Shown one piece after another: positions 11,983-42,364 of a stretch of 64,000 bases of DNA. Position 1 is the stretch's first letter; each line of letters begins with the position of its first letter. The notes under the pieces were generated by a model. It worked only from the letters and a program-made list of their open reading frames with translations, was not told the DNA's origin and searched no databases. This stretch comes from a virus (taxonomy: Duplodnaviria; Heunggongvirae; Uroviricota; Caudoviricetes): IMG/VR virus record IMGVR_UViG_2703718787_000017, one strand, 5' to 3'. The position numbers were made by a program, and so were the translations under genes.

Positions 11983-11983
11983 A

Positions 11984-12934
11984 TCACTCTCCTTTGATGC
12001 GAATGCCAGCAAGCCAGTTTCTTATGCCGATATATTCAGCGTTCCGGAAACCGCTTTTTACATATATAAATGGCAAGCGAAGATTGTGACCATTGACTGC
12101 CAGGTAGTCTTTACAACCCTGTTCGGTGAAACAGCAGGTAACGAATTCATCAATATCTTTCACAGCAACGCGCCGCCATTTTTCTGGTGGCTCTCGAAAG
12201 TTTTCATGAAGTAGCTCGAGACGACGACTATGGCGTTTATTGGCTTCATTGCCATCTTCGTCAACCCAGACAATCCGGTCATGGTCATAATCAGCATCAA
12301 CAACGATTTCGCGCTTTTGATACACACAAAACATGGGATCTGACGTTATTCGATTGTCCTGTGTTCGAATATTTTCACCGATGATGCCAAACGAATCTGG
12401 TGCAGATTTTGTCTGCATCTCTTCGATACGTTCAGCCATCGCAGCACACTCTTCAAAGTTGCTTAATGCTTTTCGCTCCCATTCGGCGCATTGTTTTTCC
12501 AGTTCTGCTATGCGCTTACTTCCATCCGCGATTACTCCCTCGTAATATTCACGCTGCTCGTTGAGTTTTGATTTTGCTGTTTCAAGCTCAACGCGCAGCT
12601 TCCCTACCGTAAGCGCAATATCCTCGTTCTCCTGGTCGCGGCGTTTGATGTATTGCTGGTTTCTTTCCCGTTCATCCAGCAGTGCCAGCACGGTAGCCGG
12701 ATTGGCTGCGGCGATGAATTCAGCATTGGCCTGCTGTTCCATTTGGAAATCTTCATCGAAACCGCTTTCAGGATGTGCTCCTTCAATTCTGCAAATGGGA
12801 ATATATCCAGCAGCCTCGCGATGAATTAGTGCATCATCACCATCAAATCGGTTCTCTCCATATTCGAGCGACCACTCACCACGCGTTGCTTTTTCTGCCT
12901 TTTCACGCAGTACCTGATAGTTAATCTCGCTCAT
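11984..12934 (-). CDS. Ea22-like lambdoid early protein (coiled-coil; N-terminus MSEINYQ…ATRGEWS)
   Basis: N-terminal sequence resembles lambda Ea22-family proteins from memory; GGAG upstream of ATG at 12934. Confidence 0.65.
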   Translation of the reverse strand: MSEINYQVLREKAEKATRGEWSLEYGENRFDGDDALIHREAAGYIPICRIEGAHPESGFDEDFQMEQQANAEFIAAANPATVLALLDERERNQQYIKRRDQENEDIALTVGKLRVELETAKSKLNEQREYYEGVIADGSKRIAELEKQCAEWERKALSNFEECAAMAERIEEMQTKSAPDSFGIIGENIRTQDNRITSDPMFCVYQKREIVVDADYDHDRIVWVDEDGNEANKRHSRRLELLHENFREPPEKWRRVAVKDIDEFVTCCFTEQGCKDYLAVNGHNLRLPFIYVKSGFRNAEYIGIRNWLAGIRIKGE

Positions 12935-13205
12935 TTTTCTCTTCGCTCCGGTATACAAGAATTACAACGTCACCTCTGCTAATTACGCGAGCTGGATCTC
13001 CTGGCTCCATGCTGTCAATCCCGAAGGCTTCGGAAAACGCATTCATTGCCTTCTGGCGTTGATCCTGCTTACGGCATTTATTCCATTTTTTCAGTAACAA
13101 CAGCGATAGCCACCGCCCGGCGCAGAACATAATGTAAAAATAACCAAGAAGCGCCAGACCTGTGTTGAGGGCCGTATCGATCGTTATAGTGGTGTCTATG
13201 CTCAC
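12921..13205 (-). CDS. small hypothetical protein with one hydrophobic helix
   Basis: 94-aa ORF overlapping neighbours by a few nt in an operon-like arrangement. Confidence 0.45.
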   Translation of the reverse strand: MSIDTTITIDTALNTGLALLGYFYIMFCAGRWLSLLLLKKWNKCRKQDQRQKAMNAFSEAFGIDSMEPGDPARVISRGDVVILVYRSEEKNERD

Positions 13206-13423
13206 TTCACACCTCTCTGTTTGTTGATAAGTTCAATATCCTGCTGGCAACTGGCGCAAGTTCGGCATCCGCGAACAGCCTGGCGTCGCCGCTCATCTAT
13301 CGGATCGCCACACTCGCAACAATGAGTAGCAGATGGGGCATTACTTTCGGATTTGTATTTTTGCAGGGAGAGATTGCGCTGCAATTCTTCGATTTCAGCG
13401 GCATTGTCGATGATATCTGCCAT
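13202..13423 (-). CDS. TraR/DksA-family C4 zinc-finger protein
   Basis: 73 aa with CxxC…CxxC (CCECG…CRTCASC) pattern typical of phage TraR-like proteins. Confidence 0.7.
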   Translation of the reverse strand: MADIIDNAAEIEELQRNLSLQKYKSESNAPSATHCCECGDPIDERRRQAVRGCRTCASCQQDIELINKQRGVK

Positions 13424-13470
13424 TTTCCTTTCCTTCAGGCATGAAAAAAGGAGCCGAAGCTCCTTTGGTA

Positions 13471-14094
13471 TCAGAATTCAAATTGTCTTGCTCTTAGTTG
13501 CGCTAGCATACTTCTGGCCCTATGCACCATATAGTTGGCGGGATCAAGTTTTGCTGCTTCGCGGAGCAATGTGTCGCGAGTCCGGTTGGTTATATGACGA
13601 GTCTCGTAGGCCAGATCAAACAGTTTCCCGTAGTAATCAGAATTCAGTTCTCTCATGACGGGGTATAGCTGCTTACTGAGTTGTTGTGCTTTTTCCATCC
13701 AGAGTTGAACGTAGCAGAGCAGGATGATGTCTTCTGCTGTGAATTGCTGCTCAGTTTGTACTGGCTGAATGTTGCGAAGTTTCTTTTCGCACTCGATGAA
13801 GTATCGGCGTATCTGGCGGCCTTTTTCGTTACGTTCAACCATCGCAAGCTCTTTGGCTGTGTCGAGGGTGAGGTGGTAATCCTTGCGGCGGCGGCCTGGA
13901 GTTTTCGCCAAATTTGGCGAAAATAGAATGTAGTCTAAATTTTCTACGAATCCATACTCGTTTAGCTTGGCCCGTATCCAGTTAGAAAAATCTTTACCTA
14001 CCTCTAAAAATCCATGCAAATCACGCGCGTTCACCAGAAGCGTAGGTTCATTTGAGATTGTACCTTCAAACACAGGGATGAGTTGAGTGGTCAT
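13471..14094 (-). CDS. phage antirepressor (AntA-type N-terminal domain plus C-terminal domain)
   Basis: MTTQLIPVF…ARDLH…YHLTLDTAKE motif set; strong RBS AAAGGAGG; upstream in-frame extension rejected. Confidence 0.8.
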   Translation of the reverse strand: MTTQLIPVFEGTISNEPTLLVNARDLHGFLEVGKDFSNWIRAKLNEYGFVENLDYILFSPNLAKTPGRRRKDYHLTLDTAKELAMVERNEKGRQIRRYFIECEKKLRNIQPVQTEQQFTAEDIILLCYVQLWMEKAQQLSKQLYPVMRELNSDYYGKLFDLAYETRHITNRTRDTLLREAAKLDPANYMVHRARSMLAQLRARQFEF

Positions 14095-14343
14095 GATGAC
14101 CTCCTTTGGCTTTTTTCGAGAAATGCCACCACAAAATGTGGTGCCGGGAGGCTCGAAACGGCCCAAAAGATACCGCGGACTTATTCCCCTTGCGGGTGTT
14201 GTATTCGTCGCCCTCCCGACATTGATCGGGGATGTGACCGCACACTGTGCTATCACTGAATAACAGGCATAAAAAATCCAACACTGACGGGGTTGGTTTA
14301 ATCCGCTTTTGGGAGGTTTTCGAGGCCTCGGCGCGGAGTATAG

Positions 14344-14631
14344 TCAGTATTGGACGCAGTCGTCAACCATCGCCGTTTCTTTGGCTGTGTCGAGGGTGAG
14401 GTGGTAATCCTTGCGGTTGTGACCGCCTCTACCAGATGTTTGCTTTCCCAAATTGGAAAGCAAAATATAGTCTTGATTTTCAATGAATTCGTATTCTGAA
14501 ATGCGATTTGTAATCCATGCCGCAAACACCTTTTTCACGCCTAAAAAAGCATGCAGATCGCGGGCATTGCAGAGTAGGGCTGTTTCGTTGTCGATAGTGC
14601 CGTTGAATACGGGGATGAGTTGATTAGCCAT
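14344..14631 (-). CDS. truncated antirepressor paralog (AntA-type N-domain only, 95 aa)
   Basis: MANQLIPVF…YHLTLDTAKE; shares a near-identical 40-nt stretch with the downstream ant gene; RBS AGGAG. Confidence 0.65.
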   Translation of the reverse strand: MANQLIPVFNGTIDNETALLCNARDLHAFLGVKKVFAAWITNRISEYEFIENQDYILLSNLGKQTSGRGGHNRKDYHLTLDTAKETAMVDDCVQY

Positions 14632-14957
14632 AATTATGACTCCTGACGTTTTAGTATTGACTGCCACCTTAGTGGGGTGGCGGGCTTCAACTACCGCGTC
14701 AGACGGCGGAGCGTATTTCCCGAAAGGGTATTGTATTAGGCTCTCTCGACCCGCCATTGATATGGCGATACCTGTAAACAGGCATAAAAAAGCCGCAAAG
14801 CTATCGGGTGCGGTTGACCGCTGACGTTGTAGTGCAGTCAGTATGCGATAGCTCTGGCAGATTTGTCAAATCGTGCAGTAACATCCTTTTCTTCCTTGCC
14901 ATTTCTCAATGATGACAAAGGGTGGATTCGGATTGGTATTGGGACAAAAGTGAGACA

Positions 14958-14992
14958 CACAAAGCTTTGCATCGGCTTACAAAGCTTTGCAT
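14958..14992. promoter_or_regulatory. two copies of ACAAAGCTTTGCAT (each containing the perfect 10-bp palindrome CAAAGCTTTG) spaced 20 bp centre to centre; putative operator pair upstream of the antirepressor genes
   Basis: Exact repeat and palindrome read from sequence; two-helical-turn spacing. Confidence 0.35.
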
Positions 14993-15036
14993 GTTTTTCA
15001 ATGTTGGGACGTGTGAGCGCAGAAATGACGGGCTAT

Positions 15037-15150
15037 CTAATTGATTTTAAACGATACGTAACCAACTTTAAAATCTTTGCACGCCAGTTCGCAGGTTTTA
15101 CAGCCAGTACAGCGGCTGGAATCGATAAAAAATCCATATTGTGTGGTCAT
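15037..15150 (-). pseudogene. ynfG: ynfG 5' fragment: first ~28 codons (MTTQYGFFIDSSRCTGCKTCELACKD…) then out-of-family sequence and stop
   Basis: N-terminal 4Fe-4S ferredoxin-type motif CxxCxxC matches YnfG start; RBS GGAG 10 nt after ynfF stop; ORF ends after 37 codons instead of about 205. Confidence 0.7.
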
Positions 15151-15160
15151 GGGCTACTCC

Positions 15161-17644: not shown

Positions 17645-18675
17645 TTATATTTTTTCGATCTCGACCAGATTAGTGTGCTGCGGGTTTCCCTTCGCCAGTG
17701 GTGAAGGGCGCAGAGTGGTTAGCGTATTCACACAGCCGCCATGGTCGATTTTATCGCCAGACATATTGGCCTCGTGCCAGGCTCCCTGGCCCATAGCGCT
17801 AACTCCAGGGAGAATACGTGGTGTTACTTTGGCTGGTAGCCGAACTTCGCCACGATGGTTAAACACCCGCACCATATCGCCGTTGGCAATCCCACGTTTC
17901 TGCGCATCTATAGGGTTGATCCACACCTCCTGACGGCAGGCAGCCTTCAGGAGATCAATATTGCCGTAGGTCGAGTGAGTACGGGATTTGTAATGGAAAC
18001 CAAACAGTTGCAGTGGGAAGGTTCTACGTTCAGGGGAGTCCCAGCCTTCAAAGGTAGAGGCATAAACTGGCAGTGGGCTTATCACTTCATCTTTTTCCAG
18101 TTCCCAGGTACGGGCAATTTCCGCCAGCTTGCTGGAATAAATTTCAATCTTACCGGAAGGTGTTTTAAGTGGATTTGCCTCGGGGTCGTCACGAAATGCT
18201 TTGTAGGCGACAAAATGACCATTGGGATCTTTACGCTTATAGATACCCATTTTTTTCAGTTCGTCGTAAGACGGTAACGCCGGATCTTTGGCAAGCATTT
18301 TGGCGTACAGATGTTGTAACCATTGTTCCTGCGTGCGACCTTCAGTGAACTTTTGATAGACGTCAGGTCCAAGACGTTTCGCGACTTCACTCAGGATCCA
18401 GTAAATCGGTTTGCGTTCGAATTTTTCGCTGGTGACAGGCTGGAGGAAAATGAGATATCCCATGTTACCGGCGTAGTCGTTAGGAATAATATCTTCCTGC
18501 TCAACGGTCATCAGGTCTGGCAGCAGAATGTCGGCATATTTTGCCGATGAGGTCATAAAGTTTTCGATGACCACAATCATTTCGCATTTCGATTCGTCCT
18601 GCAGAATTTCATGCGTTTTGTTGATGTCAGAATGCTGATTAACGAGGGTATTTCCCGCGTAGTTCCAGATGAACT
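17645..18675 (-). pseudogene. ynfE: ynfE 3' portion (C-terminal about 340 codons) separated from its 5' portion by the island
   Basis: Translation parallels YnfF C-terminus; native frame begins at …IKFIWNYAGNTLVNQ; upstream part of the ORF is island sequence. Confidence 0.85.
18661..18675 (+). repeat. left copy of 15-bp direct repeat AGTTCCAGATGAACT (att core / target duplication)
   Basis: Exact match to 25258-25272. Confidence 0.8.
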
Positions 18676-18736
18676 CCATTGTCAGACGGATGGATGGACT
18701 TGAAGTAGTTGACTCAATGCTACTTAAGGTCCTGAT

Positions 18737-20341
18737 ATGACTGACATTAACCATGATAATACTGTATGTCCATCCAGTTCTTTCTCTGGGTCTCCCTATC
18801 TGTATCAGCAAGTCTGCACCTCAAGTCCTGACACAAGGCTGACACAAATCAATATACTCAGCGTAGCTAAGCCTCAGTTAGTCCGTAGAGCCAATGGTCG
18901 ATATACTATCCGCTTCAGACTCAAGGGACAGACCATCCCGTTTCTTTCAGTATCGACCCGAAGCACAGACAGGAGAGTAGCCACAATGCGTCAGAGAGAG
19001 CTTGCAGCCACAGCTAAGACATTCCTACTAGACAAGCCTGAAGTTTCGCTACAGGAGCTTACAGAGCACCTCCGGTCTATGGCTGAGCAGTTCCTGACAG
19101 ACGCCAGTGATGACTACTGGAATGGACTTGAGGTCGCTACTCTGGTGGACGAGAAGTCCAACCTGAAGGAGCTAGCCGCTACGCAAGCCTTGAGTCTGGA
19201 CCAGCAGAAGGGCATAAGGTTAGCGCTTGAAGTCCTGACCGCAGCACAGCAGAGGGTAGACACTGGTGATGCCTCTGGTCTGATTAAGCTGATTGATGAT
19301 AATAACCATACTGATTACTCAACTATAGGCGACTATACGTCCATTCTGAAGAATGAGCAGGGGGATAGACCAGCAGTTTTCACACAGGTTACTGCTCCTT
19401 GCAGTCACAGCGAGCGTCAGCCATCTGTGGTTTTTTCAAGCCTAGTGTCCTCGCTGCTGGCTGAGAAGGTCCAGACCCTGAAGTCCTCCAGCTACAAGGA
19501 CCTGTCGTCCTCACTGAATACCGTCTCTCGGTTCTTACCTGAAGACATGGACCTGATGTCCCGCTCTGAGTGGCTGGCTGTCAGGGACTCTATGCTTGCT
19601 TCTGAGGTGAGACCATCGACAATCAACAAGCTGCTGACCAAAGCGAAGATGTGTCTCGATTATGGCCTGATGAATGGGCAACTTGAGGGCCGCAACCCTA
19701 TTGAACGGATGAAGCTGACCAAGGATATCGACTCCAAGCGCAGAGCGTTCACAGACGAGGAGCTGGATGGACTTCTTGTCCGGGTAGAGGCTGAGTATCA
19801 GTTCACACGACATACCGCTCACACGACCTCTGAGGCTCGCAGGTGGGCGACTCTGGTCTCTGTGGTCACTGGCGCTCGGTCTGCTGAGGTCTGCCACCTG
19901 ACTAAACGTGACATTGTAACCTTGGACAATGGACTGGTCTGTATCGACATCAATGAAGATGGGGGCGGGAAGTCCGTAAAGAACAAGCATTCAGTCCGAC
20001 TTGTACCGCTGACCGATGGCGCTTATGGGTTTGACCTGAAGTCCTTCCTCGAATGGGTAGACATGCAGCCTGACGAGGGTCCTCTCTTCGGGATGACTCC
20101 AAGCGCATACTCTAGCTGGTTTAACTCAAGGGTCCTCACAGAGGCTCTCCCAGACGCTGAGAACGTCTCTCTACACAGTCTGAGACATTGGCTGGCGACC
20201 CGGATGAAAGAGCGTGGAGTCAATCTGGTGGACGCTCAGGGCATCTTAGGTCACAGCAGTCAGTCCATTACGTATGACCTGTACGGGAAAGGACATGCAG
20301 TTGGTAGGCTGGCTGATGTGCTGAAGACAGCTTTACTTTAA
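18737..20341 (+). CDS. tyrosine recombinase (integrase), 534 aa with extended N-terminal region
   Basis: C-terminal catalytic pattern: …GARSAEVCHL… (Arg), HSLRHWLATR (His-x-x-Arg), ITYDLYGK (Tyr); gene sits just inside the left repeat. Confidence 0.85.
   Translation: MTDINHDNTVCPSSSFSGSPYLYQQVCTSSPDTRLTQINILSVAKPQLVRRANGRYTIRFRLKGQTIPFLSVSTRSTDRRVATMRQRELAATAKTFLLDKPEVSLQELTEHLRSMAEQFLTDASDDYWNGLEVATLVDEKSNLKELAATQALSLDQQKGIRLALEVLTAAQQRVDTGDASGLIKLIDDNNHTDYSTIGDYTSILKNEQGDRPAVFTQVTAPCSHSERQPSVVFSSLVSSLLAEKVQTLKSSSYKDLSSSLNTVSRFLPEDMDLMSRSEWLAVRDSMLASEVRPSTINKLLTKAKMCLDYGLMNGQLEGRNPIERMKLTKDIDSKRRAFTDEELDGLLVRVEAEYQFTRHTAHTTSEARRWATLVSVVTGARSAEVCHLTKRDIVTLDNGLVCIDINEDGGGKSVKNKHSVRLVPLTDGAYGFDLKSFLEWVDMQPDEGPLFGMTPSAYSSWFNSRVLTEALPDAENVSLHSLRHWLATRMKERGVNLVDAQGILGHSSQSITYDLYGKGHAVGRLADVLKTALL
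18829..18850. repeat. two direct copies of TGACACAA (putative integrase arm-type sites, left end)
   Basis: CTGACACAAGGCTGACACAAAT; same motif appears three times near the right end. Confidence 0.45.
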
Positions 20342-20554
20342 GTAGGAAGACCCAAGGTGTAGACCATATACGGCTTGATGGTTGAACCTTGGGTCGCTGA
20401 AGTCTGACTGAAGTTAGGGAGGGTGATAATAATCATAATCCCTCCTGACTATAGGCCCACTGGTTCGCCTTCGGCTGTCCGACTCTAAGTCTGTATGTGG
20501 TCTTATTTAAACTGGTTCCCTAACTCCAGTACTCCAAATTCCTATGGTCTCCTC

Positions 20555-20760
20555 TTGACATTCCTGTTTAACTGTGAGTCGCCTCTGGTCTCTCTTTATA
20601 TATACTTCCTTAATTCCTGAGGCGTCTTTAGTCCTTGACATTCGGTCCAACCTGTGAGTCACATCCGGTCCTCCCTCTATATATATACTTCCTTAATTCC
20701 TAGGGTCGCCTTAATCCTTGACATCCAGTCCAACCTGTGAGTCACATCCTGTCGCTAGCA
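20555..20760 (+). repeat. about 80-bp tandem repeat, 3 units, each with TTGACA, inverted repeat TGTGA-G-TCACA and a TATATATA block; candidate host-RNAP promoter/operator array
   Basis: TTGACA at 20555, 20635, 20718; units align over most of their length; third unit diverges at its 3' end. Confidence 0.6.
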
Positions 20761-20799
20761 AGCTAGCTGTCGCGCTACTGTATGCATCACCAGTGGTGG

Positions 20800-20822
20800 A
20801 CTTGATTATCACTATAGGGGAA
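20800..20822 (+). promoter_or_regulatory. T7-group single-subunit RNAP promoter-like 23-mer ACTTGATTATCACTATAGGGGAA (predicted +1 at G 20817)
   Basis: Positions -8 to +3 identical to T7 consensus TCACTATAGGG; upstream -17 to -9 differs from T7/T3/SP6; lies 30 nt upstream of an RBS and ATG. Confidence 0.5.
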
Positions 20823-20851
20823 CCAACTAATTCAACTACAGGAGATACTCT

Positions 20852-21220
20852 ATGGCACGACCAATCGCAACTCACGACAACACGTTCACCAAAGCCTACT
20901 TGCAGCAGCACTGCGGGGACCTGCTGTCATTCGATGGTCAGGGCGACCTGAGTGGTTGGCTGGATGATGTCCTTACTGGTGCTGGTCGCCTGAACGAATC
21001 AATGGCAAGCAATACCAAGCCTGTCAGCCCATACTTGATTCTGACCCAACTACTAACGCACGACACATTAACTGTAAGCGCTGTGCAGGAGTCCCTGAGC
21101 CGTAAGCGTGTCGCCTTGGGTGAACCTATGGTTTCAACTCGCTACGCTCGCTACGTCTATGCTACCGTCGTCAGCGCCAGTAAATCCGTCCAGTACCACG
21201 CCAGTAAAGCTGGTTCATGA
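20852..21220 (+). CDS. hypothetical protein (122 aa), first gene downstream of promoter-like site 1
   Basis: ORF with AGGAG 8 nt upstream of ATG; no family recognised. Confidence 0.6.
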   Translation: MARPIATHDNTFTKAYLQQHCGDLLSFDGQGDLSGWLDDVLTGAGRLNESMASNTKPVSPYLILTQLLTHDTLTVSAVQESLSRKRVALGEPMVSTRYARYVYATVVSASKSVQYHASKAGS

Positions 21221-21228
21221 TTACGGAC

Positions 21229-21251
21229 CCTAAACTATCACTATAGGGAAG
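21229..21251 (+). promoter_or_regulatory. second T7-group RNAP promoter-like 23-mer CCTAAACTATCACTATAGGGAAG (predicted +1 at G 21246)
   Basis: Shares ATCACTATAGGG with site 1; same -8 to +3 core as T7 consensus. Confidence 0.5.
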
Positions 21252-21781
21252 AGCAGCCTCCACCTCTGGTCTTGATGCGTCAAGTTATGCGGAAGCTCTC
21301 CCGACATTAAGTATCTCTCCTAAGCAATCAAGGTCTGTGACCGCCTCTGTCATTCCTGCATCCCGTGAGTGTTCTTCTGTCGTCTCGGTTAGTAGCTCGT
21401 CTACTCACTACACTGACTTAAGTCTATCAGCACCTACCAGATGCACGCCTGACATGCGGTCCCGCCTTATATGCACATGGAGAACATGGTCCAAATGTAG
21501 CCTACGAAATTTTCGTAAGCTTCGGGCAGGACCAAGGCTGGTAGAAGTCTAACCAACCCAGAAAACGGGTTTGTTAAAAAGATTAACATGGGTCACTTAG
21601 GGCAGGACGCTTCTCTACCGTCCCGCCTTTATTGACACCTGCAGGAAATCATGGTCATCCCCGACCAATCAAATCAACCCTATTCACTTTCGTAAGCACT
21701 TTCGGCGGCTCCATTTGGTAGCGCTGAATAGGTGTGGAGACCCGCAGGGGAACGAGAGTGCTTTCTAAAGGAGCTACCTTA
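21252..21781 (+). other. 530-nt apparently untranslated leader with internal repeats (TCCCGCCTT x2; TTCGTAAGC-N-CTTCGG x2); possible structured RNA, processing sites or replication origin
   Basis: No convincing ORF with RBS (the 71-aa ORF at 21337 is Ser-rich with no SD); repeats read directly. Confidence 0.3.
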
Positions 21782-22873
21782 ATGAACATCCATAAATTCA
21801 TCGACATGAACGAAGTCATCGCCAGCAATCATCCTCTTGCCAAAGGTACCACTGACAGCGTAACGCAGGTCATCGTGTCACACCTGAAGTCCGGCGATGC
21901 AGGTATCGACATCCTGAATGCGCCTAAGGCCGCTAGCGATATGTCTGCCAGCTTCCTGAATGACTTGAAGAGCAAGTATCGTGTCGTGGCTGGTCATAAC
22001 TCTGAGGGTCACATTGATGCATGGCTGGCGCATAAGCACAGCGGACGCCGGGTGACGACTAAAAGCAATGACAAGGGTTATCGCGCTGTGAGCGTGAATG
22101 GTCGCCCGTATCAGGAGCACCGCCTTATCGTGGCCCTGTTCTATGATGTGGCACTGCCGGGCTGGGTGGTAGTTAATCACGCTGTGTCCTGCACCATTTG
22201 GAACGAAGGCAAATCAAACCATCCGTTCAACCTCCGATTAACGACATCATATGGTAACCAGCTTGATAAGAAGGTCCGCGAAGGTGTTCGCAATAAGTTC
22301 ACCGGGTACTACTTCGATGAATATCGTGGCAAGTGGCGCGTCCAGATGAAGCGGCCTTTCGCTGGTGGTCCGCAGCATTTCGGCATGTACGACACCGAAG
22401 CTGAGGCCTACATTGTCCGCTGCGCTGTCCTCCACCAGCATCTTGGTGCGTTCTGGGCGATGACCACCGGGGAATCCGGTCTCGTGCCCCGAGTCAAACC
22501 TGACGGTTCTCTGGTACTGCCTACTGAGCATGGTTACGATTGGGCGGAAAACCTGCCTTATCCTGAGGACTGGGACGACGAGTTCAAGGCCCGGCTGGAG
22601 GAGATGAAGCTGTACTGGGACGCATATCATGTGTTCGGTATTGAAGACGAAGAATACTTCGGCGACTGTGTGTCAGGGCTTGATGTGAACGCAGTAGTGT
22701 TCAACGGCGTGCCTGCCATTATCGACATCACAGAAGGACTTCCGGTGTCATATGCTCACTGGTTCGGACCAAGCCAACGCTTCGAGTTCACCAACTACTA
22801 CCAGCGCTGCATTCACGCCTGTGACCTTGATGCGGAACCTGAAGAGGAAGACTGGATGGAGAACGATTTCTGA
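21782..22873 (+). CDS. HNH endonuclease with AP2-type DNA-binding domain (homing-endonuclease-like)
   Basis: YQEHRLIVALFYD…VVNH motif (HNH) followed by RLTTSYGN…YYFDEYRGKWRVQM…FGMYDTEAEA (AP2-like); RBS AAAGGAG. Confidence 0.75.
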   Translation: MNIHKFIDMNEVIASNHPLAKGTTDSVTQVIVSHLKSGDAGIDILNAPKAASDMSASFLNDLKSKYRVVAGHNSEGHIDAWLAHKHSGRRVTTKSNDKGYRAVSVNGRPYQEHRLIVALFYDVALPGWVVVNHAVSCTIWNEGKSNHPFNLRLTTSYGNQLDKKVREGVRNKFTGYYFDEYRGKWRVQMKRPFAGGPQHFGMYDTEAEAYIVRCAVLHQHLGAFWAMTTGESGLVPRVKPDGSLVLPTEHGYDWAENLPYPEDWDDEFKARLEEMKLYWDAYHVFGIEDEEYFGDCVSGLDVNAVVFNGVPAIIDITEGLPVSYAHWFGPSQRFEFTNYYQRCIHACDLDAEPEEEDWMENDF

Positions 22874-23085
22874 TGACAATTAAACAGCATATCGACCCTC
22901 GCACCGATATCGGCAGGGCAACACTTCGTTATCGTGGTCTGCCTACTCGTCATCTTCTGTCAATGCTGGGGATGGGTACTGATTCATCCGAGCGCCCTTA
23001 CTACAATCGAGACGAGCTGATAGCAATGCTGGTGGACCGTGATTTGAATAATCAGTTGCGTCGAGCCTTTGCTAAGCAGTCCTGA
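22873..23085 (+). CDS. hypothetical protein (70 aa)
   Basis: ATG overlaps stop of upstream gene (TGATG coupling). Confidence 0.5.
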   Translation: MTIKQHIDPRTDIGRATLRYRGLPTRHLLSMLGMGTDSSERPYYNRDELIAMLVDRDLNNQLRRAFAKQS

Positions 23086-23208
23086 CCATACCACCTTAAT
23101 TTAAACACCTTTTGAGAATGACCGATGCGGGGAGACCGTAGGCATAACTGTGTCTGCGATACCGATAGTTCTCACCTTCTCAAGAGGAGTAATTACTATG
23201 TCTAGCAA

Positions 23209-23707
23209 AGCTAGTGCGTTATTCAACAACAACGACTGGAAACTGTCTGTCACCGACATCAATCTCTATGAAAATACTGTGAATCTGGATGGGCAGTCCT
23301 ACCCGTTGTCTCTGGCTATCAAGACCCTCATTCCGGGCTACCTGTCAGGCTTACCGTCCACCAGCAGCGCGGCGATGGAGCTGTTAGAGGCTCTGGCTGA
23401 AGCTGGTGTAGCTATTGGCAACTTCTTCAGTAATGACCTGATGACCGCCTATGGTCGCCGCCAGCAGAACAAGCGAGCTGAGGCTGAGCGTATCGCTAAA
23501 GAGCAGCGCATTCAGGCCGAGCGCATGCGTGAAGAGAACATGACTGATGCAGAGTGGCAGAAAGAGCTACAGCGCCGCGAACAGGTCAAAGCTGAACGCC
23601 GGACCTATGGTGAGAACCTCCGCAGTGCTACCCATTCCGCTGGTCGCTCCCGTGCCGCTATTGTCGCTGACATTGAGTCAGGCGGTAACTGGATGGACAG
23701 CCTCTAA
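23209..23707 (+). CDS. hypothetical protein (166 aa) with charged coiled-coil C-terminal half
   Basis: RBS AGAGGAG 9 nt upstream of ATG; no family recognised; scaffold-like composition is speculation. Confidence 0.6.
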
Positions 23708-23781
23708 GACAGACACACAAGTGGTCCTGACCTGATGTCGGGACCCACAGTATCTAAAACTAATTTAGGAGATTGATTATT

Positions 23782-24771
23782 ATGACCATGATTAAAGATA
23801 GCTATCAGTTCGGCATTGAGCCAGTACGTATCACCGACACCGACAACATTCAGGTAAACGAAGGTCTTCCGACTAACGCCGACCCTCAGGTCTATGCCTT
23901 CCAGTTAGCTAAGCTGGTGAAGACCATGCTCAATTCTGTACTTAAAGACGCTCAGGATAACATTCCGTTCCCTGTAGAAGTCCTGCCAGCTCGCAACAGC
24001 TTACCGACGCCAATCATTGCTCACACTCTGGCTGACCGCTCTGTGGTCGTTCCTGTCCGTGGTGGTAAACGACCTGAAGTCGTGACCGCTCCGTCTGGTA
24101 CTGAAATCACCGTTGAGCCGATTGAGCAAGCTATCCTCGTGTCCCACCAAACCAAGCTATGGGACGCTAAGTCATCCACCGGATTCACTCAGGGCACACT
24201 TCAGCAGGACGCTATGAACATCTGTGAGAATGTGGTCCGTACCATCAACGCTCGCATGGTCGACGTTCTGGAGTCCTCCAAACTGTTGAAGACCGTAGAG
24301 CTTCCTGTCCTGACTGGTAGCCTGACCGCTAAGGCAGACGATATCATGGACGCTCTGTATGACAACACCGAGTCCTCTTTCGGCTCTGAAGTGTCTGATT
24401 ATGGCATCATCGCCCATGAGTCCCAACTGAAAGCGCTGTCCCGTCTGGCTGCTAAACAGGGCTTCTCTGGTGAAGACGCTATCGTGGATATGCTGGGAAC
24501 AGACATCGCCTACTACAACGGTGAAGACAAGGGTGTGTTCATGCTGGCTAAACGCTTCACGGCCCTGAGCTTCGGTTGCTTCCGTCATGATGGCGAGAAC
24601 ATTACCGTGGTCTTATCCCGGGATGGTGACTCTCAGTCTAACTCTCTGGAAATCCTCGGCAAGGTCTTCGTGGTTGCTGAAGCTGCTACGACAATCAAGA
24701 TGGGTACTGGTAGTGCTACTGCTGTCCTGCCTGTAGTCAAACGCCTGAAGTTCACCAAGACCGAAGCGTAA
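23782..24771 (+). CDS. hypothetical protein (329 aa); structural (capsid-like) role possible but unverified
   Basis: RBS TTAGGAG upstream; largest non-enzymatic ORF of the island. Confidence 0.65.
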   Translation: MTMIKDSYQFGIEPVRITDTDNIQVNEGLPTNADPQVYAFQLAKLVKTMLNSVLKDAQDNIPFPVEVLPARNSLPTPIIAHTLADRSVVVPVRGGKRPEVVTAPSGTEITVEPIEQAILVSHQTKLWDAKSSTGFTQGTLQQDAMNICENVVRTINARMVDVLESSKLLKTVELPVLTGSLTAKADDIMDALYDNTESSFGSEVSDYGIIAHESQLKALSRLAAKQGFSGEDAIVDMLGTDIAYYNGEDKGVFMLAKRFTALSFGCFRHDGENITVVLSRDGDSQSNSLEILGKVFVVAEAATTIKMGTGSATAVLPVVKRLKFTKTEA

Positions 24772-24934
24772 GACCATGAGCAGAGGTAAGTCTGGACTGA
24801 ATATCAGCAGGACTTCAGGTGGTGGATTATCAATGTAATTAATAACTATGGTCTGGACTTCGGTCTGGACCTTATTAGCGAAGTTATCCACAGCTTAATA
24901 ACATATACAACTTTATTCACATTAAGGAGGACGC

Positions 24935-25018
24935 ATGGACCTGCATAAAGTCTATCTTATCGTCTTCCTGTTGAAGCTGGTGCTGGTGGTCGTGCTTACA
25001 GTCAGGGTACGGCTGTGA
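24935..25018 (+). CDS. small hydrophobic peptide (27 aa, MDLHKVYLIVFLLKLVLVVVLTVRVRL)
   Basis: Strong RBS TAAGGAGG 5 nt upstream; single predicted TM helix; too short to be in the ORF track. Confidence 0.3.
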   Translation: MDLHKVYLIVFLLKLVLVVVLTVRVRL

Positions 25019-25128
25019 GCTGGCGAGCAGCTAACGATGAGTTTTGGACCAAAAGTTAGAGACCTGATTCAATACAATTAAGACACCAATGTTCCCCGGT
25101 GCCACCCTGAGTCCAGACCGAGGCCACC

Positions 25129-25140
25129 GGGGGGGGGGGG
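25129..25140. repeat. homopolymeric G12 tract
   Basis: Twelve consecutive G read directly, near the island right end. Confidence 0.9.
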
Positions 25141-25170
25141 CTGACCAGCCGTCTAGACATCCCGTCTAAT

Positions 25171-25204
25171 GACACAAGGCTGACACAAAGCCTGACACAA
25201 AGTC
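25171..25204. repeat. three direct copies of TGACACAA(G/A) (putative integrase arm-type sites, right end)
   Basis: ATGACACAAGGCTGACACAAAGCCTGACACAAAG; mirrors the two copies at 18829-18850. Confidence 0.5.
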
Positions 25205-25257
25205 CTTGACTCAATGCAGGACCTCAGGCCTACTAAGGGTCCGCTTCAAGTCCTTGA

Positions 25258-25272
25258 AGTTCCAGATGAACT
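25258..25272 (+). repeat. right copy of 15-bp direct repeat AGTTCCAGATGAACT
   Basis: Exact match to 18661-18675. Confidence 0.8.
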
Positions 25273-26668
25273 TAATGGGCACATCCAGTTTATCTTTGCC
25301 GCGGACGCCGTCGCGGATTGCCGTCATTTGCGGACCATGATCGATAGCATCTGTCCAGCTGAAGCAGGAGATTGACATTTTGACCGGATTATCCAGCACC
25401 GGCAGGCGTTCTATGGTAATGGTATAGGTCGATTCACGCGCGCCACTATTTCCGCCGCTGATGCCGACATTGCCCGTCAAAATAGGTAACATAGCAATAG
25501 CGCGTGCAGTCAGTTCGCCGTTTGCCTGGCGTTGCGGCCCCCAGCCCTGGCAGATATAAGCGGGTTTTGCTGTGCCAATTTCACGCGCCAGTTTGATGAT
25601 ACGGTCTACCGGGATACCGGTAATTTGCGAAGCCCACTGCGGCGTTTTCGCTGTGTTATCATCACCTTCACCAAGAATATAGGCTTTATAGTGACTATTT
25701 TTGGGTGCATCTGCGGGTAAGGTTTTTTCGTCATAGCCGACGCAGTATTTATCGAGAAAAGGTTGATCAACGAGATTTTCGTTAATCAATACCCAGGCAA
25801 TACCCGCAACCAGCGCGGCATCGGTGCCCGGGCGAATAGGGAGCCATTCATCTTCACGACCAGCAGCCGTATCGGTATATCGCGGATCGATAGCAATCAT
25901 TTTGGCGTTCGATTTCTCGCGCGCTTTTTCAAGAAGATAAGTGATGCCACCGCCGCTCATGCGGGTTTCTGCCGGGTTGTTACCAAACATCACGACCAGC
26001 TTGCTGTTTTCAATATCCGTGGTGCTGTTGCCATCATTACTGCCGTAGGTGTAGGGCATGGCACAGGAAATTTGCGCGGTGCTGTAGGAGCCATACTGAT
26101 TGAGTGAACCGCCGTAGCAGTTCATCAGGCGTTTGACCGCCGAGGCTGATGGCGAAGAGCGGGTCATATTGCCGCCAACGATCCCCGAAGAGTACTGAAT
26201 ATATACAGCCTCATTGCCATATTGTTCGACGGTTTTCTTCAGGCTACTGGCGATAGTATCCAGGGCTTCATCCCAGCTAATCCGTTCGAATTTGCCTTCG
26301 CCGCGTTTGCCCACGCGTTTCATTGGGTAATTCAAGCGATCGGGATGATTAATACGCCGACGGATGGATCGACCACGCAAACAGGCGCGTACTTGATGAT
26401 TGCCATACTCGTCGCTGCCGGTGTTGTCAGTTTCCACCCAGGTGACTTCATTATCTTTAACATGTAGACGAAGTGCACAGCGGCTACCACAGTTGACGGA
26501 ACAGGCACCCCAGATCACTTTTTCGCTGGCCTGTTGTACCGCTGCCGCTGCACTGCGCAGGGTGAACGGTAAAGAAAAACCGCCTGCAGCCAGCGCCAGA
26601 GAACCTATCGCGGTTGATTTAACGAGTGTTCTGCGGCTGATGCCCACCATTCGGTCATTTTTGGACAT
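25273..26668 (-). pseudogene. ynfE: ynfE 5' portion (N-terminal about 465 codons incl. Tat signal), interrupted by the island
   Basis: MSKNDRMVGISRRTLVK… Tat motif and CSVNCGSRC; native frame ends at …PIKFIWN then reads into island sequence. Confidence 0.85.
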
Positions 26669-36783: not shown

Positions 36784-36836
36784 CGGCGGCAGAGCAGTCA
36801 CGGAGTAAAACTGATACCGCCAAACGTCACCAGAAA
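36784..36836 (-). ncRNA. dicF: DicF small RNA (ftsZ-targeting Hfq-dependent sRNA)
   Basis: Minus-strand sequence TTTCTGGTGACGTTTGGCGGTATCAGTTTTACTCCGTGACTGCTCTGCCGCC matches remembered DicF; 175 nt upstream of dicB as in K-12. Confidence 0.8.
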
Positions 36837-42208: not shown

Positions 42209-42364
42209 ATGAAGCAGCAAAAGGCGATGTTAATCGCCCTGATCGTCATCTGTTTAACCGTCATAGTGACGGCACTGGTAACGAGGAAAGACCTCTGCGA
42301 GGTACGAATCCGAACCGGCCAGACGGAGGTCGCTGTCTTCACAGCTTACGAACCTGAGGAGTAA
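42209..42364 (+). CDS. hokD: Hok-family type I toxin HokD (RelF)
   Basis: 51 aa MKQQKAMLIALIVICLTVIVTALVTRKDLCEVRIRTGQTEVAVFTAYEPEE. Confidence 0.85.
   Translation: MKQQKAMLIALIVICLTVIVTALVTRKDLCEVRIRTGQTEVAVFTAYEPEE

What the first reader, a model, noticed from the sequence alone, without database searches (positions are those of the whole stretch)
18661..25272. Compact integrase island precisely splitting ynfE, flanked by a 15-bp direct repeat
AGTTCCAGATGAACT occurs at 18661-18675 and 25258-25272. Joining the outer flanks with one copy gives a continuous YnfE frame (…LDVPIKFIWNYAGNTLVNQ…) that parallels the intact paralog YnfF. The 6.6-kb interior carries a tyrosine recombinase just inside the left repeat and TGACACAA arm-type repeats near both ends. 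Integration into a protein-coding gene that has a functional paralog is uncommon for integrase elements.
Basis: seen in the sequence. Interest (0 to 1): 0.8.

Follow-up and report, generated by a model that had tools for sequence, protein, structure and literature searches.

The report
Capsid-encoding satellite of T7-like phages in ynfE
The 6.6-kb island that splits ynfE is a real integrase element, and its sequence suggests a previously undescribed parasite of T7-like virulent phages: it carries those phages' RNA-polymerase promoters, a copy of their DNA-packaging junction, and its own capsid-protein gene.

Summary
AGTTCCAGATGAACT occurs only at 18661-18675 and 25258-25272. Joining the flanks gives a sequence 100% identical to intact ynfE in other E. 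coli. 149 of 5426 complete E. coli genomes carry the same ynfE::element junction. Disruption of ynfE by integrative elements was already listed by the TIGER survey (PMC7192596).

The content of the element appears to be new.
- The gene before it looks like a scaffolding protein.
- The only two matches in the 64-kb window to the phage K1F RNA-polymerase promoter lie inside the element, each upstream of genes.
- About 190 nt at the right end align with the K1F concatemer junction. A 31-mer within it is shared at 30/31 with 217 T7-like phage genomes.
- Fifteen relatives keep promoters at the same positions, in different phage-specific versions.

Best reading: a satellite of virulent T7-like phages that is switched on by the phage polymerase and packaged through a mimic of the phage packaging signal, probably into capsids built from its own coat protein. 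I found no portal, terminase or replication gene among the ORFs of 70 aa or more. No experiment or excised form supports the model yet.

The parts
17645..18675 (-). C-terminal fragment of ynfE (from ...FIWNYAGNTLVNQ... to the stop codon), cut off from its start by the insertion
   Evidence: ORF and translation. Joined flanks are identical to intact ynfE. Relatives are annotated as pseudogene fragments.
18661..18675 (+). attL core: left copy of the 15-bp direct repeat AGTTCCAGATGAACT, an internal dyad AGTTC/GAACT
18709..18720 (+). TTGACTCAATGC motif, repeated near the right end (25206-25217). Possible accessory-protein site in attP.
   Evidence: Read directly from the sequence. A similar motif is present at both ends of L004.
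18737..20341 (+). Tyrosine recombinase / integrase (534 aa as the longest ORF)
   Evidence: Pfam PF00589 E=1.7e-13. phrog_1 integrase E=1.3e-41. 31% identical over its full length to the integrase of the tRNA-Gly sister elements.
18829..18847 (+). Two TGACACAA repeats, candidate arm-type integrase sites (P' arm)
   Evidence: conserved in L001, L002 and L004
20422..20453 (+). 32-nt patch shared with the right-end non-coding DNA of T7-like phages (32/32 with phage phiYIO1-1; 22/24 with K1F 38985-39008). Contains a GGAGGG...CCCTCC inverted repeat.
   Evidence: The syntenic patch of L004 matches phages IMM-002 and Pisces.
20554..20753 (+). About 2.5 tandem copies of an ~83-bp unit (TTGACAT, TGTGAGTCACA palindrome, TATATATA block). 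Iteron-like; possibly an origin or a regulatory region.
   Evidence: Conserved in the ynfE-type relatives L001, L002, L005 and L006.
20799..20821 (+). Phage-RNA-polymerase promoter P1 (GACTTGATTATCACTATAGGGGA), 30 nt upstream of the 122-aa gene
   Evidence: K1F promoter matrix score 21.5 bits, one of only 2 hits in the window. 20/22 with the K1F right-end promoter at 38849. Exact TATCACTATAGGG, 0 expected. Conserved position in relatives.
20852..21220 (+). 122-aa protein of unknown function (phrog_23123). Accompanies the ynfE-type integrase; DUF4145 takes this position in the tRNA-Gly-type elements. Candidate excision factor (inference only).
21228..21250 (+). Phage-RNA-polymerase promoter P2 (CCCTAAACTATCACTATAGGGAA), heading the operon 21782-24771
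   Evidence: 33.9 bits, which is within the range of the 10 genuine K1F promoters (31.5-36.2). Identical 19-21-mers occur at K1F 5552, 19998 and 20998. Conserved in all ynfE-type relatives.
21734..22873 (+). AP2/HNH-endonuclease-like protein (probable start ATG 21782). Occupies the variable slot that holds KilA-N, Rha or Bro-N proteins in relatives.
   Evidence: phrog_99 HNH endonuclease E=9.5e-17. RefSeq name 'AP2 domain-containing protein' in relatives. Variants.
22873..23085 (+). 70-aa protein of unknown function
   Evidence: ORF. Identical protein WP_264094641.1 annotated in relatives.
23150..23707 (+). Scaffolding-like protein (probable start 23198): N-terminal domain, then a long charged helical stretch, then a conserved C-terminus. 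Always encoded immediately before the capsid gene.
   Evidence: Alignment A4 spans E. coli to Pseudomonas. 'DUF6971' annotation or faint hit in relatives. No significant Pfam hit here. The function is inferred from position and composition only.
23773..24771 (+). HK97-fold major-capsid-like protein (332 aa)
24850..24871 (+). 9-bp hairpin with UUCG loop (GGTCTGGAC-TTCG-GTCTGGACC) 80 nt after the capsid gene; possible transcription terminator
   Evidence: Fold. The region as a whole is not more stable than shuffles (z = -1.1), so this is only a candidate.
24935..25018 (+). 27-aa hydrophobic peptide gene (MDLHKVYLIVFLLKLVLVVVLTVRVRL) with a strong AAGGAGG ribosome-binding site
   Evidence: Conserved at protein level with conservative substitutions in 10 relatives of both att types.
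24939..25126 (+). Mimic of the T7-like concatemer junction. Aligns with K1F 39390-39587, i.e. the last ~135 nt of unique right-end DNA plus the first ~60 nt of the terminal repeat. Core 25034-25064 ACGATGAGTTTTGGACCAAAAGTTAGAGACC matches 30/31.
   Evidence: The 31-mer is shared by 217 phage records of ~39-41 kb, in unannotated DNA near the right end. All ynfE-type relatives hit the same K1F coordinates. A variant right end matches the annotated terminal repeat of phage Citrof5.
25129..25140 (+). Run of 12 G (6 G in four relatives, absent in others)
25170..25200 (+). Three TGACACAA repeats, candidate arm-type integrase sites (P arm)
25258..25272 (+). attR core: right copy of the 15-bp direct repeat
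25258..26668 (-). N-terminal fragment of ynfE (Tat signal and molybdopterin domains); the ORF as listed runs on into the element and ends at 25211

Best explanation
The element is a 6.6-kb integrative satellite (hyperparasite) of virulent T7-like phages of the K1F/Kayfunavirus group. It sits silently in ynfE.

Shown by the analyses:
- It is a site-specific tyrosine-recombinase element. It has a 15-bp att core, and the empty site in other genomes is exact.
- It carries two promoters of the K1F phage RNA polymerase type, both pointing into its genes.
- It carries ~190 nt homologous to the phage's concatemer junction.
- It encodes an HK97-fold capsid protein, preceded by a scaffold-like protein.
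- No portal, terminase, tail or replication protein was detected.
- Relatives in other hosts keep this architecture but carry the promoter version of other T7-like phages.

Inferred model:
1. When such a phage infects, its own RNA polymerase transcribes the satellite genes. P1 drives the 122-aa protein, which may be the excision factor. P2 drives the AP2/HNH-like protein, the 70-aa protein, the scaffold-like protein and the capsid protein.
2. The element excises through Int.
3. It is copied by the phage replisome. T7-type origins are phage promoters next to AT-rich DNA (own knowledge).
4. The phage terminase recognises the junction mimic.
5. The 6.6-kb DNA is packaged into small shells built from the satellite's own coat and scaffold proteins on the phage's portal, then completed with the phage's tail.
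6. In a new cell it integrates into ynfE. This is tolerated because ynfF is a paralogue.
For: Integration:
- Exact 15-bp repeat and exact empty site.
- The ynfE::element junction is present in 149 of 5426 complete E. coli genomes.
- The window's closest relatives by flank identity have intact ynfE, so this is probably a recent gain.

Capsid gene:
- pLDDT 84.6 model.
- The 50 best Foldseek hits listed are all capsid proteins or encapsulins.
- One distant homologue carries a Big_2 Ig domain, as virion surface proteins often do.

Phage promoters:
- A matrix built from 10 K1F promoters finds only 2 hits of at least 14 bits in 128 kb of searched strand. Both are inside the element, on the coding strand, upstream of ORFs. 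One scores 33.9 bits, within the range of the real K1F promoters.
- All 15 relatives examined have 2-3 such sites at syntenic positions.

Co-variation of promoter version with phage:
- The C. freundii element L026 carries AAGGAAGGTACACTATAGG. That sequence occurs 10 times, all on one strand, in a single 39.6-kb T7-like viral contig whose RNA polymerase is 79% identical to that of K1F. One 36-nt match includes the promoter before that phage's capsid gene.
- The Edwardsiella copies carry a T3-like version.
- L011 and L014 carry two different versions in tandem.

Packaging signal:
- A 31-mer matches at 30/31 the K1F sequence that ends 3 nt before the right terminal repeat. Weaker homology runs over ~190 nt into the repeat.
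- The 31-mer is conserved in 217 T7-like phage genomes.
- All ynfE-type relatives align to the same K1F coordinates. Variant right ends match other T7-like phages' terminal repeats.

Missing functions: no portal, terminase, tail, primase or Rep hit among the ORFs.
Against: - There is no experimental evidence of any kind.
- No excised attP junction was found in IMG/VR or JGI metagenome contigs.
- Every element-sized contig I inspected was an integrated copy with short flanks.
- The capsid and scaffold-like proteins show no sequence similarity to K1F gp10 or gp9. Compatibility with the helper's portal and terminase is therefore unproven.
- The scaffold assignment rests on position and composition only.
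- No phage-type promoter was found in front of int, so how excision is triggered is a guess.
- T7-like phages degrade host DNA quickly, and nothing here shows how the element would escape that.
- The Pseudomonas and ENA relatives (L025, L027) showed no recognisable T7-group promoter with my pattern.
- Many copies carry IS insertions, so a fraction of the family is decaying.
Confidence: 0.68

Rival explanations
1. A phage-triggered defence island rather than a transmissible satellite. The T7-type promoters act as an infection sensor. The capsid-like protein, the nuclease-like protein and the packaging-site mimic poison assembly or titrate the terminase of the infecting phage. The element itself is not packaged, and it spreads by other routes.
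For: - The same sensor evidence applies.
- The variable slot holds HNH/AP2, KilA-N, Rha and Bro-N proteins, as in interference modules of other satellites.
- DUF4145 sits next to int in the sister elements.
- No packaged or circular form was found.
Against: - No PADLOC model matches any protein.
- An integrase, conserved att sites, presence in several genera at orthologous sites, and promoter versions that track different phages all imply repeated horizontal transfer in the company of these phages.
- A ~190-nt junction homologue that runs into the terminal repeat is more than a simple decoy would need.
- Interference and transfer are not exclusive: known satellites do both.
Confidence: 0.17
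2. A 'regulated gene integrity' switch, as proposed by the TIGER survey. The element's main role is to turn ynfE off and on by reversible excision under some physiological signal.
For: [quoted passage not shown]
- Integration destroys the reading frame without restoring it.
- The same site is used in E. coli and C. koseri. The C. freundii relative lies in the same locus, though its junction was not checked.
Against: - Sister elements with the same cargo use a tRNA-Gly 3' end, so the cargo has nothing to do with ynfE.
- The regulatory signals inside the element are phage-polymerase promoters, not host-responsive ones.
- The window has an intact ynfF paralogue.
- In this strain the operon is also broken at ynfG by a prophage.
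Confidence: 0.05
3. A mobile encapsulin-like nanocompartment. The HK97-fold protein forms a shell that encloses the upstream protein as cargo, for a cellular function unrelated to DNA packaging.
For: - A gene immediately upstream of the shell gene is the usual position of encapsulin cargo (own knowledge).
- A preprint argues for transitions between small HK97 viruses and encapsulins (10.1101/2025.06.18.659913).
Against: - There is no encapsulin Pfam hit.
- The upstream protein has no enzyme domain.
- Expression signals and the packaging mimic are those of a lytic phage.
Confidence: 0.04
4. A decayed remnant of a larger prophage or satellite that merely retains an integrase and a few structural genes.
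For: Small size; many unknown genes; frequent IS insertions in relatives.
Against: - The same compact gene order, at 6.4-7.3 kb without IS, recurs from E. coli to Rouxiella, Edwardsiella and Citrobacter. The capsid proteins are down to 25% identical, and the repeats at both ends are intact.
- Cis signals are conserved at syntenic positions.
- T7-like phages are not temperate, so they cannot be the parent.
Confidence: 0.03

Closest known systems
Capsid-forming PICIs (cf-PICIs, e.g. EcCI2)
   Different: cf-PICIs are reported to encode all the proteins needed for capsid production and packaging and to take only tails from temperate helpers (abstract of 10.1101/2022.09.08.507074). Here only a coat and a scaffold-like gene are present and the element is 6.6 kb. 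The signals are those of virulent T7-like phages. No AlpA, primase-replicase, portal, protease or terminase hit was found.
PICMI and PLE (satellites of virulent phages in Vibrio)
   Same: Small integrated islands that exploit lytic rather than temperate helpers. PICMI is similarly minimal.
   Different: [quoted passage not shown] PLE remodels the helper's coat with the TcaP scaffold (PMC10002752). This family brings its own coat protein and uses phage-RNA-polymerase promoters. Hosts and helpers differ, and no homologous genes were seen.
Portal-less, tail-less 'mini' HK97 genomes from gut viromes (Aguilar et al. 2025 preprint, 10.1101/2025.06.18.659913)
   Same: Integrase + regulators + scaffold + HK97 coat, with no portal, terminase or tail genes and a size below 11.6 kb. 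The authors mention a satellite lifestyle as one possibility.
   Different: Those genomes are ~8.9 kb, carry RepA/helicase-type replication genes, and their coat proteins hit encapsulin Pfam domains. The family here is 6.4-7.3 kb, has no Rep gene and no Pfam hit. It also has an identifiable candidate helper group through its promoters and packaging-site mimic, which that study does not report.
SaPIbov5 Ccm (satellite-encoded capsid-protein homologue)
   Different: Ccm co-assembles with the helper's coat protein in a cos-type SaPI of a temperate staphylococcal phage. I cannot tell whether the 332-aa protein replaces the helper's coat or mixes with it.
T7 transducing plasmids (Chung and Hinkle 1990; recalled from my own knowledge, not checked here)
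   Same: A DNA that carries a T7 promoter/origin plus the T7 concatemer junction is replicated and packaged by T7 during infection. The element carries the natural counterparts of both signals.
   Different: Those were laboratory constructs packaged into normal T7 heads. This is a natural, integrating, capsid-encoding element.
ynfE-disrupting integrative elements in the TIGER survey (PMC7192596)
   Same: Probably the same elements: integrase-defined islands that disrupt ynfE without restoring it.
   Different: In the part of the paper I read (the abstract names the gene; its tables were not available), that work reports the site and proposes gene regulation. It does not describe cargo, capsid gene or phage signals.

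Membership tests
Site-specific integrative genetic element (tyrosine integrase type) | Encodes a tyrosine recombinase next to one end | tested here: met
   PF00589 E=1.7e-13; phrog_1 E=1.3e-41; gene starts 62 bp from attL
Site-specific integrative genetic element (tyrosine integrase type) | Flanked by a direct repeat equal to the attB core, with an exact empty site in other genomes | tested here: met
   15-bp repeat. The joined flanks are 100% identical to intact ynfE, and the site is contiguous in 5112 genomes.
Site-specific integrative genetic element (tyrosine integrase type) | Excised circular form (attP) detectable | tested here: not met
   A degenerate 48-nt attP pattern found nothing in IMG/VR or JGI metagenome contigs. 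This is weak negative evidence, because assemblies rarely capture rare circles.
Phage satellite (general) | Lacks a full set of virion and packaging genes and depends on a helper phage | tested here: inconclusive
   Absence of portal, terminase and tail genes is shown. Dependence on a helper is inferred from promoters and the junction mimic and has not been demonstrated.
Phage satellite (general) | Induced, replicated and packaged on helper infection | not testable with these tools
   Needs infection experiments
cf-PICI | Own HK97-fold major capsid protein | tested here: met
cf-PICI | Own portal, prohead protease, head-tail connectors and small terminase | tested here: not met
   No such Pfam or PHROG hit in any ORF of 70 aa or more. 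6.6 kb leaves no room for them.
PICI (classical) | int, repressor/AlpA regulatory pair, primase-replicase and ori, packaging-redirection genes; about 10-15 kb | tested here: not met
   Only int is present. No AlpA, Pri/Rep, TerS, Ppi or Rpp hits. Size is 6.6 kb.
P4-like satellites | Psu, Sid, Delta, alpha primase-helicase, P2-type cos | tested here: not met
   No matching families. No similarity to any phage record except the T7-like patches and a short integrase stretch.
PICMI | [quoted passage not shown] | tested here: not met
   Encodes an HK97 coat protein. The host is Enterobacterales.
Encapsulin system | HK97-fold shell protein | tested here: met
Encapsulin system | Shell matches encapsulin sequence families and has an enzymatic cargo with a targeting peptide | tested here: not met
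   No Pfam hit for the shell in 33 homologues. The upstream protein has no enzyme domain.
T7-group (Studiervirinae) cis signals | 23-nt promoter matching a phage's own consensus, in the sense orientation upstream of genes | tested here: met
   33.9 and 21.5 bits with the K1F matrix. These are the only two hits in the window. The L026 version equals the 10-copy promoter of a specific T7-like contig.
T7-group (Studiervirinae) cis signals | Sequence of the concatemer junction next to the terminal repeat | tested here: met
   30/31 core and ~190-nt alignment with K1F 39390-39587. Conserved in 217 phage records.
T7-group (Studiervirinae) cis signals | Promoters are used by the phage polymerase and the junction is cut by the phage terminase | not testable with these tools
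   Needs in vitro transcription and mapping of packaged ends

The most novel reading that the evidence does not exclude
This is the first recognised family of satellites of T7-like (Autographiviridae, Studiervirinae) virulent phages. They are 6-7-kb integrative elements spread across Enterobacterales, with a more distant relative in a Pseudomonas genome. They use the infecting phage's single-subunit RNA polymerase as their induction switch and copy its concatemer junction to be packaged. With only a coat and a scaffold gene of their own, they build a miniature HK97 capsid on stolen portal, terminase and tail. That would be the smallest capsid-forming satellite design known.
Probability: 0.5. 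Interest if true: 0.92.

Novelty: new variant of a known kind. Interest (0 to 1): 0.82.

Why it matters
T7 and its relatives are among the best-studied phages and are widely used in phage therapy and biotechnology. In eight literature searches I found no description of a satellite that exploits them.

If the model is right, about 3% of complete E. coli genomes carry such an element in ynfE (149 of 5426). About 6% (310 of 5426) carry the scaffold-coat module somewhere, which includes the tRNA-Gly sister elements and IS-disrupted copies. The element would wake on infection by K1F-type phages, probably interfere with them, and move between strains and genera in small particles.

It would show three things:
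- a new induction logic, in which the phage polymerase reads satellite promoters directly, with promoter versions that track individual phage lineages and sometimes two versions in tandem;
- a minimal gene set for capsid formation, just coat plus scaffold;
- a natural bridge between tailed-phage capsids and the portal-less 'mini' HK97 entities recently seen in viromes.

In practice it would affect the host range and efficacy of therapeutic T7-like phages. It could also offer a compact, programmable DNA-delivery chassis. The system is directly testable in E. coli with existing strains and phages.

Tried and rejected
- **Sequence-family searches.** Pfam, PHROGs, PADLOC and NCBIfam gave nothing for the 332-aa, 185-aa, 122-aa and 70-aa proteins. 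tblastn of the 332-aa protein against 50,697 phage records gave nothing. PDB sequence profiles gave nothing.
- **First structure prediction.** A 14-sequence shallow alignment failed (pLDDT 37). It only worked after I added distant representatives from the exhaustive HMMER search.
- **Profile-based protein searches.** These were saturated by close relatives and added few sequences.
- **Similarity to the helper's proteins.** BLASTP of the coat and scaffold-like proteins against K1F gp10 and gp9 found no similarity.
- **Non-coding RNA.** Rfam found nothing inside the element. The sigma-70 promoter and terminator scans were at background level.
- **Excised or packaged forms.**
  - The element-sized Logan contigs (L004, L010, L012) are integrated copies with short flanks.
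  - L004 has no terminal overlap.
  - The attP pattern was absent from IMG/VR and the JGI metagenomes.
  - The three IMG/VR loci with the coat gene lie on 18-73-kb contigs, much larger than the element.
- **Other promoter versions in IMG/VR.** The L004 version gave four single hits in contigs unrelated to the family. The 15-mer for the Edwardsiella version was too short and gave only scattered single hits.
- **Edwardsiella element against the phage collection.** It matched only antirepressor coding sequence.
- **GTGAGTCAC palindrome of the 83-bp repeats.** It is not a family-wide motif.
- **Conjugative mobilisation.** I considered it and set it aside: there is no relaxase and the element gave only one partial plasmid match. 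An oriT-only hitcher cannot be excluded by sequence alone.

Full report
**1. The observation**

The 15-mer AGTTCCAGATGAACT occurs exactly twice in the window, at 18661-18675 and 25258-25272. Shuffles gave no matches, even with one mismatch allowed. The two copies share nothing beyond those 15 bases. The core is itself a dyad (AGTTC CAGAT GAACT), as expected for a tyrosine-recombinase crossover site.

Removing the interval and one copy gives a continuous minus-strand frame (...KDKLDVPIKFIWNYAGNTLVNQHSD...). The 815-bp joined sequence is 100% identical, in one piece, to annotated intact ynfE of many E. coli. 5112 of 5426 complete genomes have the site uninterrupted.

As it stands, ynfE is split into two fragments. 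The N-terminal fragment runs into 15 foreign codons. The C-terminal fragment has no proper start. Nothing restores the gene. The paralogue ynfF next door is intact.

The five TGACACAA copies are the only ones in the window. They lie two at the left end and three at the right end, all in one orientation, and form part of an exact 20-nt repeat. They are conserved in relatives. The raw count alone is not significant.

**2. What was already known**

The TIGER survey of integrative elements names ynfE among genes that integrase elements disrupt without restoring. It proposes 'regulated gene integrity' (PMC7192596). The integration site is therefore not new. In the text I could read, only the abstract names the gene, and nothing describes the element's content.

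**3. Anatomy**

All genes are on the + strand. Running from left to right:

| Feature | Coordinates | Basis |
|---|---|---|
| Integrase (PF00589, phrog_1) | 18737-20341 | |
| Non-coding region with ~2.5 copies of an 83-bp unit | ~500 nt, repeats at 20554-20753 | |
| 122-aa protein | 20852-21220 | |
| Leader | ~500 nt | |
| AP2/HNH-like protein (phrog_99) | 21782-22873 | |
| 70-aa protein | 22873-23085 | |
| Protein with long charged helical region | 23198-23707 | |
| 332-aa protein | 23773-24771 | |
| Right-end non-coding region | ~490 nt | |

No protein matched any PADLOC defence model. Rfam found nothing inside the element.

**4. The family**

The same layout recurs widely: integrase, one small gene, a variable DNA-binding or nuclease-type gene, a small gene, a 145-185-aa protein, and a 330-360-aa protein last. 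The variable slot holds AP2/HNH, KilA-N, Rha or Bro-N proteins.

- In E. coli the last two genes match in 310 of 5426 genomes, at 398 places, with up to two per genome.
- The exact ynfE junction is present in 149 genomes.
- The layout also occurs in these hosts:
  - Shigella;
  - Citrobacter koseri, at the same core site of the orthologous gene;
  - C. freundii, in the same locus;
  - Rouxiella;
  - Edwardsiella tarda, two copies in one genome;
  - a Pseudomonas genome, as a larger ~11-kb version.
- A sister group in E. coli, with an integrase 31% identical, uses the 3' end of tRNA-Gly with the 17-bp repeat TCCCTTCGCCCGCTCCA.
- One metagenomic relative uses a similar core, TAGTTCAGATTGAACT, in another gene.
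- Intact copies measure 6.4-7.3 kb. Many copies carry IS elements.

The window's own copy is at most 95% identical to any copy in complete E. coli genomes. Strains whose flanks are 100% identical to the window have an empty ynfE. This argues for a recent acquisition.

**5. The last gene encodes an HK97-fold capsid protein**

A first AlphaFold2 run with close homologues failed (pLDDT 37). An exhaustive HMMER search found 64 clusters down to 25% identity. With 33 of them the model reached pLDDT 84.6 and pTM 0.79.

- Foldseek against the PDB gave 241 hits at E <= 1e-3. The 50 best listed are all phage major capsid proteins or encapsulins.
- One distant homologue has a C-terminal Big_2 Ig domain, as exposed virion proteins often do.

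The protein encoded just upstream is conserved throughout the family. It has the charged, helical character and the gene position of a scaffolding protein.

**6. Signals of T7-like phages**

A blastn of the element against 50,697 phage records returned only short non-coding matches, plus one short stretch inside int that matched Pseudomonas phage integrase genes. The non-coding matches were to about 170 genomes of ~40 kb, from T7-like phages of Escherichia, Salmonella, Enterobacter, Citrobacter and others.

Comparison with phage K1F (NC_007456) resolved three kinds of match.

*(a) Promoters.* Window 21228-21250 (CCCTAAACTATCACTATAGGGAA) equals the K1F RNA-polymerase promoter consensus. A matrix built from ten K1F promoters scores it at 33.9 bits, against 31.5-36.2 for the genuine sites. 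The only other hit of at least 14 bits in the 64-kb window is 20799-20821 (21.5 bits; 20/22 with the K1F right-end promoter). Both point into the element's genes. The exact 13-mer TATCACTATAGGG has zero expected occurrences.

*(b) Packaging junction.* Window 25034-25064 matches, at 30 of 31 positions, the K1F sequence that ends 3 nt before its 178-bp right terminal repeat. A local alignment extends over about 190 nt, from ~135 nt upstream to ~60 nt inside the repeat. The 31-mer is conserved at 30/31 in 217 phage records of 39-41 kb, in unannotated DNA that lies near the right end wherever records start at the true end.

*(c) Right-end patch.* Window 20422-20453 matches non-coding DNA between the last gene and the terminal repeat of such phages (32/32 with phiYIO1-1).

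**7. The signals are conserved, and they co-vary with phage lineage**

All 15 relatives scanned carry two or three promoter-like sites at the same relative positions and on the same strand. The versions differ:

- K1F type in the E. coli, Rouxiella and C. koseri elements;
- ATTAAATTATCACTATAGGGAA in L004;
- a T3-like AATTAACCCTTACTATAGG in Edwardsiella;
- AAGGAAGGTACACTATAGGGAG, twice, in the C. freundii element;
- two different versions 27 nt apart in L011 and L014.

The C. freundii version was found in IMG/VR in a single 39,651-bp contig, ten times, always on one strand. That contig is a T7-like phage: RNA polymerase 79%, portal 76%, large terminase 80% and coat 83% identical to K1F. The longest match (36 nt, 97%) includes the promoter just upstream of its coat gene.

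The right ends of all ynfE-type relatives align to the same K1F junction coordinates. A variant right end matches the annotated short terminal repeat of Citrobacter phage Citrof5 and the end of Dickeya phage JA10. The L004 patch matches the right end of phages IMM-002 and Pisces.

**8. Most likely mechanism**

What is shown:
- a site-specific integrative element;
- phage-polymerase promoters placed to drive its two transcription units;
- a homologue of the helper's concatemer junction;
- its own HK97 coat gene;
- no detectable portal, terminase, tail or replication gene.

What I infer:
1. On infection by a matching T7-like phage, the phage polymerase transcribes the element.
2. The promoter-proximal 122-aa protein travels with the ynfE-type integrase, while DUF4145 travels with the tRNA-Gly type. 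It may supply excision directionality.
3. The excised circle is replicated by the phage replisome. T7 origins are phage promoters next to AT-rich DNA, and plasmids carrying a T7 origin plus the concatemer junction are packaged by T7. Both points are my own recollection of Chung and Hinkle 1990 and were not checked here.
4. The phage terminase recognises the junction mimic.
5. The coat and scaffold-like proteins build a small shell sized for about 6.6 kb on the phage's portal. By the capacity estimates quoted in 10.1101/2025.06.18.659913, this lies between the ~5 kb and ~10 kb projected for the two largest encapsulin shells.
6. Phage tails complete the particle.

The variable AP2/HNH, KilA-N, Rha or Bro-N gene and the conserved 27-aa hydrophobic peptide may serve interference or lysis.

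My confidence:

| Claim | Confidence |
|---|---|
| It is an integrative element | ~0.98 |
| It is wired to T7-like phages | ~0.8 |
| It forms its own capsids and is transduced | ~0.5 |

**9. Evidence against, and gaps**

- No excised junction was found in IMG/VR or JGI metagenome contigs.
- All element-sized contigs were integrated copies.
- The coat and scaffold-like proteins have no sequence similarity to K1F gp10 or gp9, so fit to the helper's portal is unproven.
- No phage promoter precedes int.
- The Pseudomonas relatives showed no recognisable T7-group promoter.
- Nothing explains how the element would survive host-DNA degradation by the phage.

**10. Rival explanations**

- *Defence island sensing the T7 polymerase, without transfer (0.17).* It shares the trigger evidence. 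It does not explain the integrase-mediated spread across genera or the junction homology that runs into the terminal repeat.
- *Gene-integrity switch for ynfE (0.05).* It is weakened by the sister elements at tRNA-Gly that carry the same cargo, and by the phage-type rather than host-type control signals.
- *Decayed prophage (0.03).* It does not fit the conserved compact architecture.

**11. Comparison with known systems, and novelty**

The element works most like a capsid-forming PICI, because it brings its own coat. It also works like PLE and PICMI, because the helper is virulent. It fails the gene-content definitions of PICI, cf-PICI, P4-like and PICMI (see the membership table).

The closest published concept is the group of portal-less, tail-less 'mini' HK97 genomes from gut viromes (preprint). 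Those are larger, carry Rep genes and encapsulin-type coats, and have no identified helper.

Eight literature searches found no description of a satellite of T7-like phages. The library is incomplete, so absence there is not proof. I rate the element a new variant of a known kind, that is, a new satellite family. The ynfE integration itself is already known.

Noticed in passing
window 11467-15160 (left of the ynfF stop at 15161): ynfG does not follow ynfF. Instead there are phage genes (Ant and AntA/AntB antirepressors, a TraR/DksA-type protein) and, in relatives, a '4Fe-4S binding protein' remnant. 52 complete E. coli genomes, mostly STEC isolates, share this junction. So the ynf operon of this strain is broken twice: a prophage at ynfG and the satellite in ynfE. 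The strains sharing the prophage junction have an intact ynfE.
   Followed up: partly
window 14135-14220 and 14671-14755 (- strand): Two Rfam sRNA-Xcc1 matches (74.5 and 53 bits) lie just upstream of, or overlapping, the 5' ends of the two antirepressor genes of that prophage.
   Followed up: no
window 24935-25018: A 27-aa very hydrophobic peptide gene with a strong Shine-Dalgarno sequence lies between the capsid gene and the packaging-junction mimic. It is conserved, with conservative substitutions, in 10 relatives of both att types. It could be a small membrane toxin or a holin-like or exclusion peptide.
   Followed up: partly
window 25129-25140: A run of 12 G. Four relatives have 6 G at the corresponding place and others have none. 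It could be slippage-prone, or a sequencing or assembly artefact.
   Followed up: partly
window 20554-20753: About 2.5 tandem copies of an ~83-bp unit, each with TTGACAT, the palindrome TGTGAGTCACA and a TATATATA block. Conserved in ynfE-type relatives. Part of the unit resembles K1F terminal-repeat positions 80-99 in inverted orientation (18/20). Edwardsiella copies have a different AT-rich tandem repeat that also contains GTGAGTCAC. Function unknown: origin, operator array or terminase-binding sites.
   Followed up: partly
L011 6641-6690 and L014 4344-4393: Two phage-polymerase promoters of different specificity sit 27 nt apart: ATACACCCTCACTATAGGGA, which is T7/T3-like, followed by the K1F type. 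This suggests that one satellite can respond to two different helper lineages.
   Followed up: no
L007 and L008 (Edwardsiella tarda CP184643.1, 1.61 and 1.79 Mb): Two copies of a divergent family member (identical coat protein, 25% identical to the window's) lie at two different chromosomal sites of one genome.
   Followed up: no
Enterobacter hormaechei plasmid NZ_CP126871.1, 20676-22325: The scaffold-like and coat gene pair occurs at 76.8% DNA identity on a 58.7-kb plasmid typed as non-mobilisable. This is the only plasmid match.
   Followed up: no
RefSeq annotations of relatives (e.g. H42, H47, H49, H71-H74): In several genomes a gene under the scaffold-like/coat match, and adjacent to it, is annotated 'peptidase M16 family protein', and elsewhere 'hypothetical protein'. 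Neither the scaffold-like protein nor the HK97-fold protein has a peptidase hit here, so the name looks like a mis-annotation.
   Followed up: no
window 36784-36835, 42040-42214, 45509-45932, 48410-48794: DicF RNA, a sok antitoxin RNA and two cspA-type thermoregulator leaders. This is a Qin/Kim-type cryptic prophage region downstream of the ynf locus, as in E. coli K-12.
   Followed up: no
relatives H7-H9, H11, H15, H28, L016, L018, L026: Many family members are interrupted by IS elements (IS100, IS3 family, IS66/ISCro1) at different positions. A sizeable fraction of chromosomal copies is therefore probably inactive.
   Followed up: no
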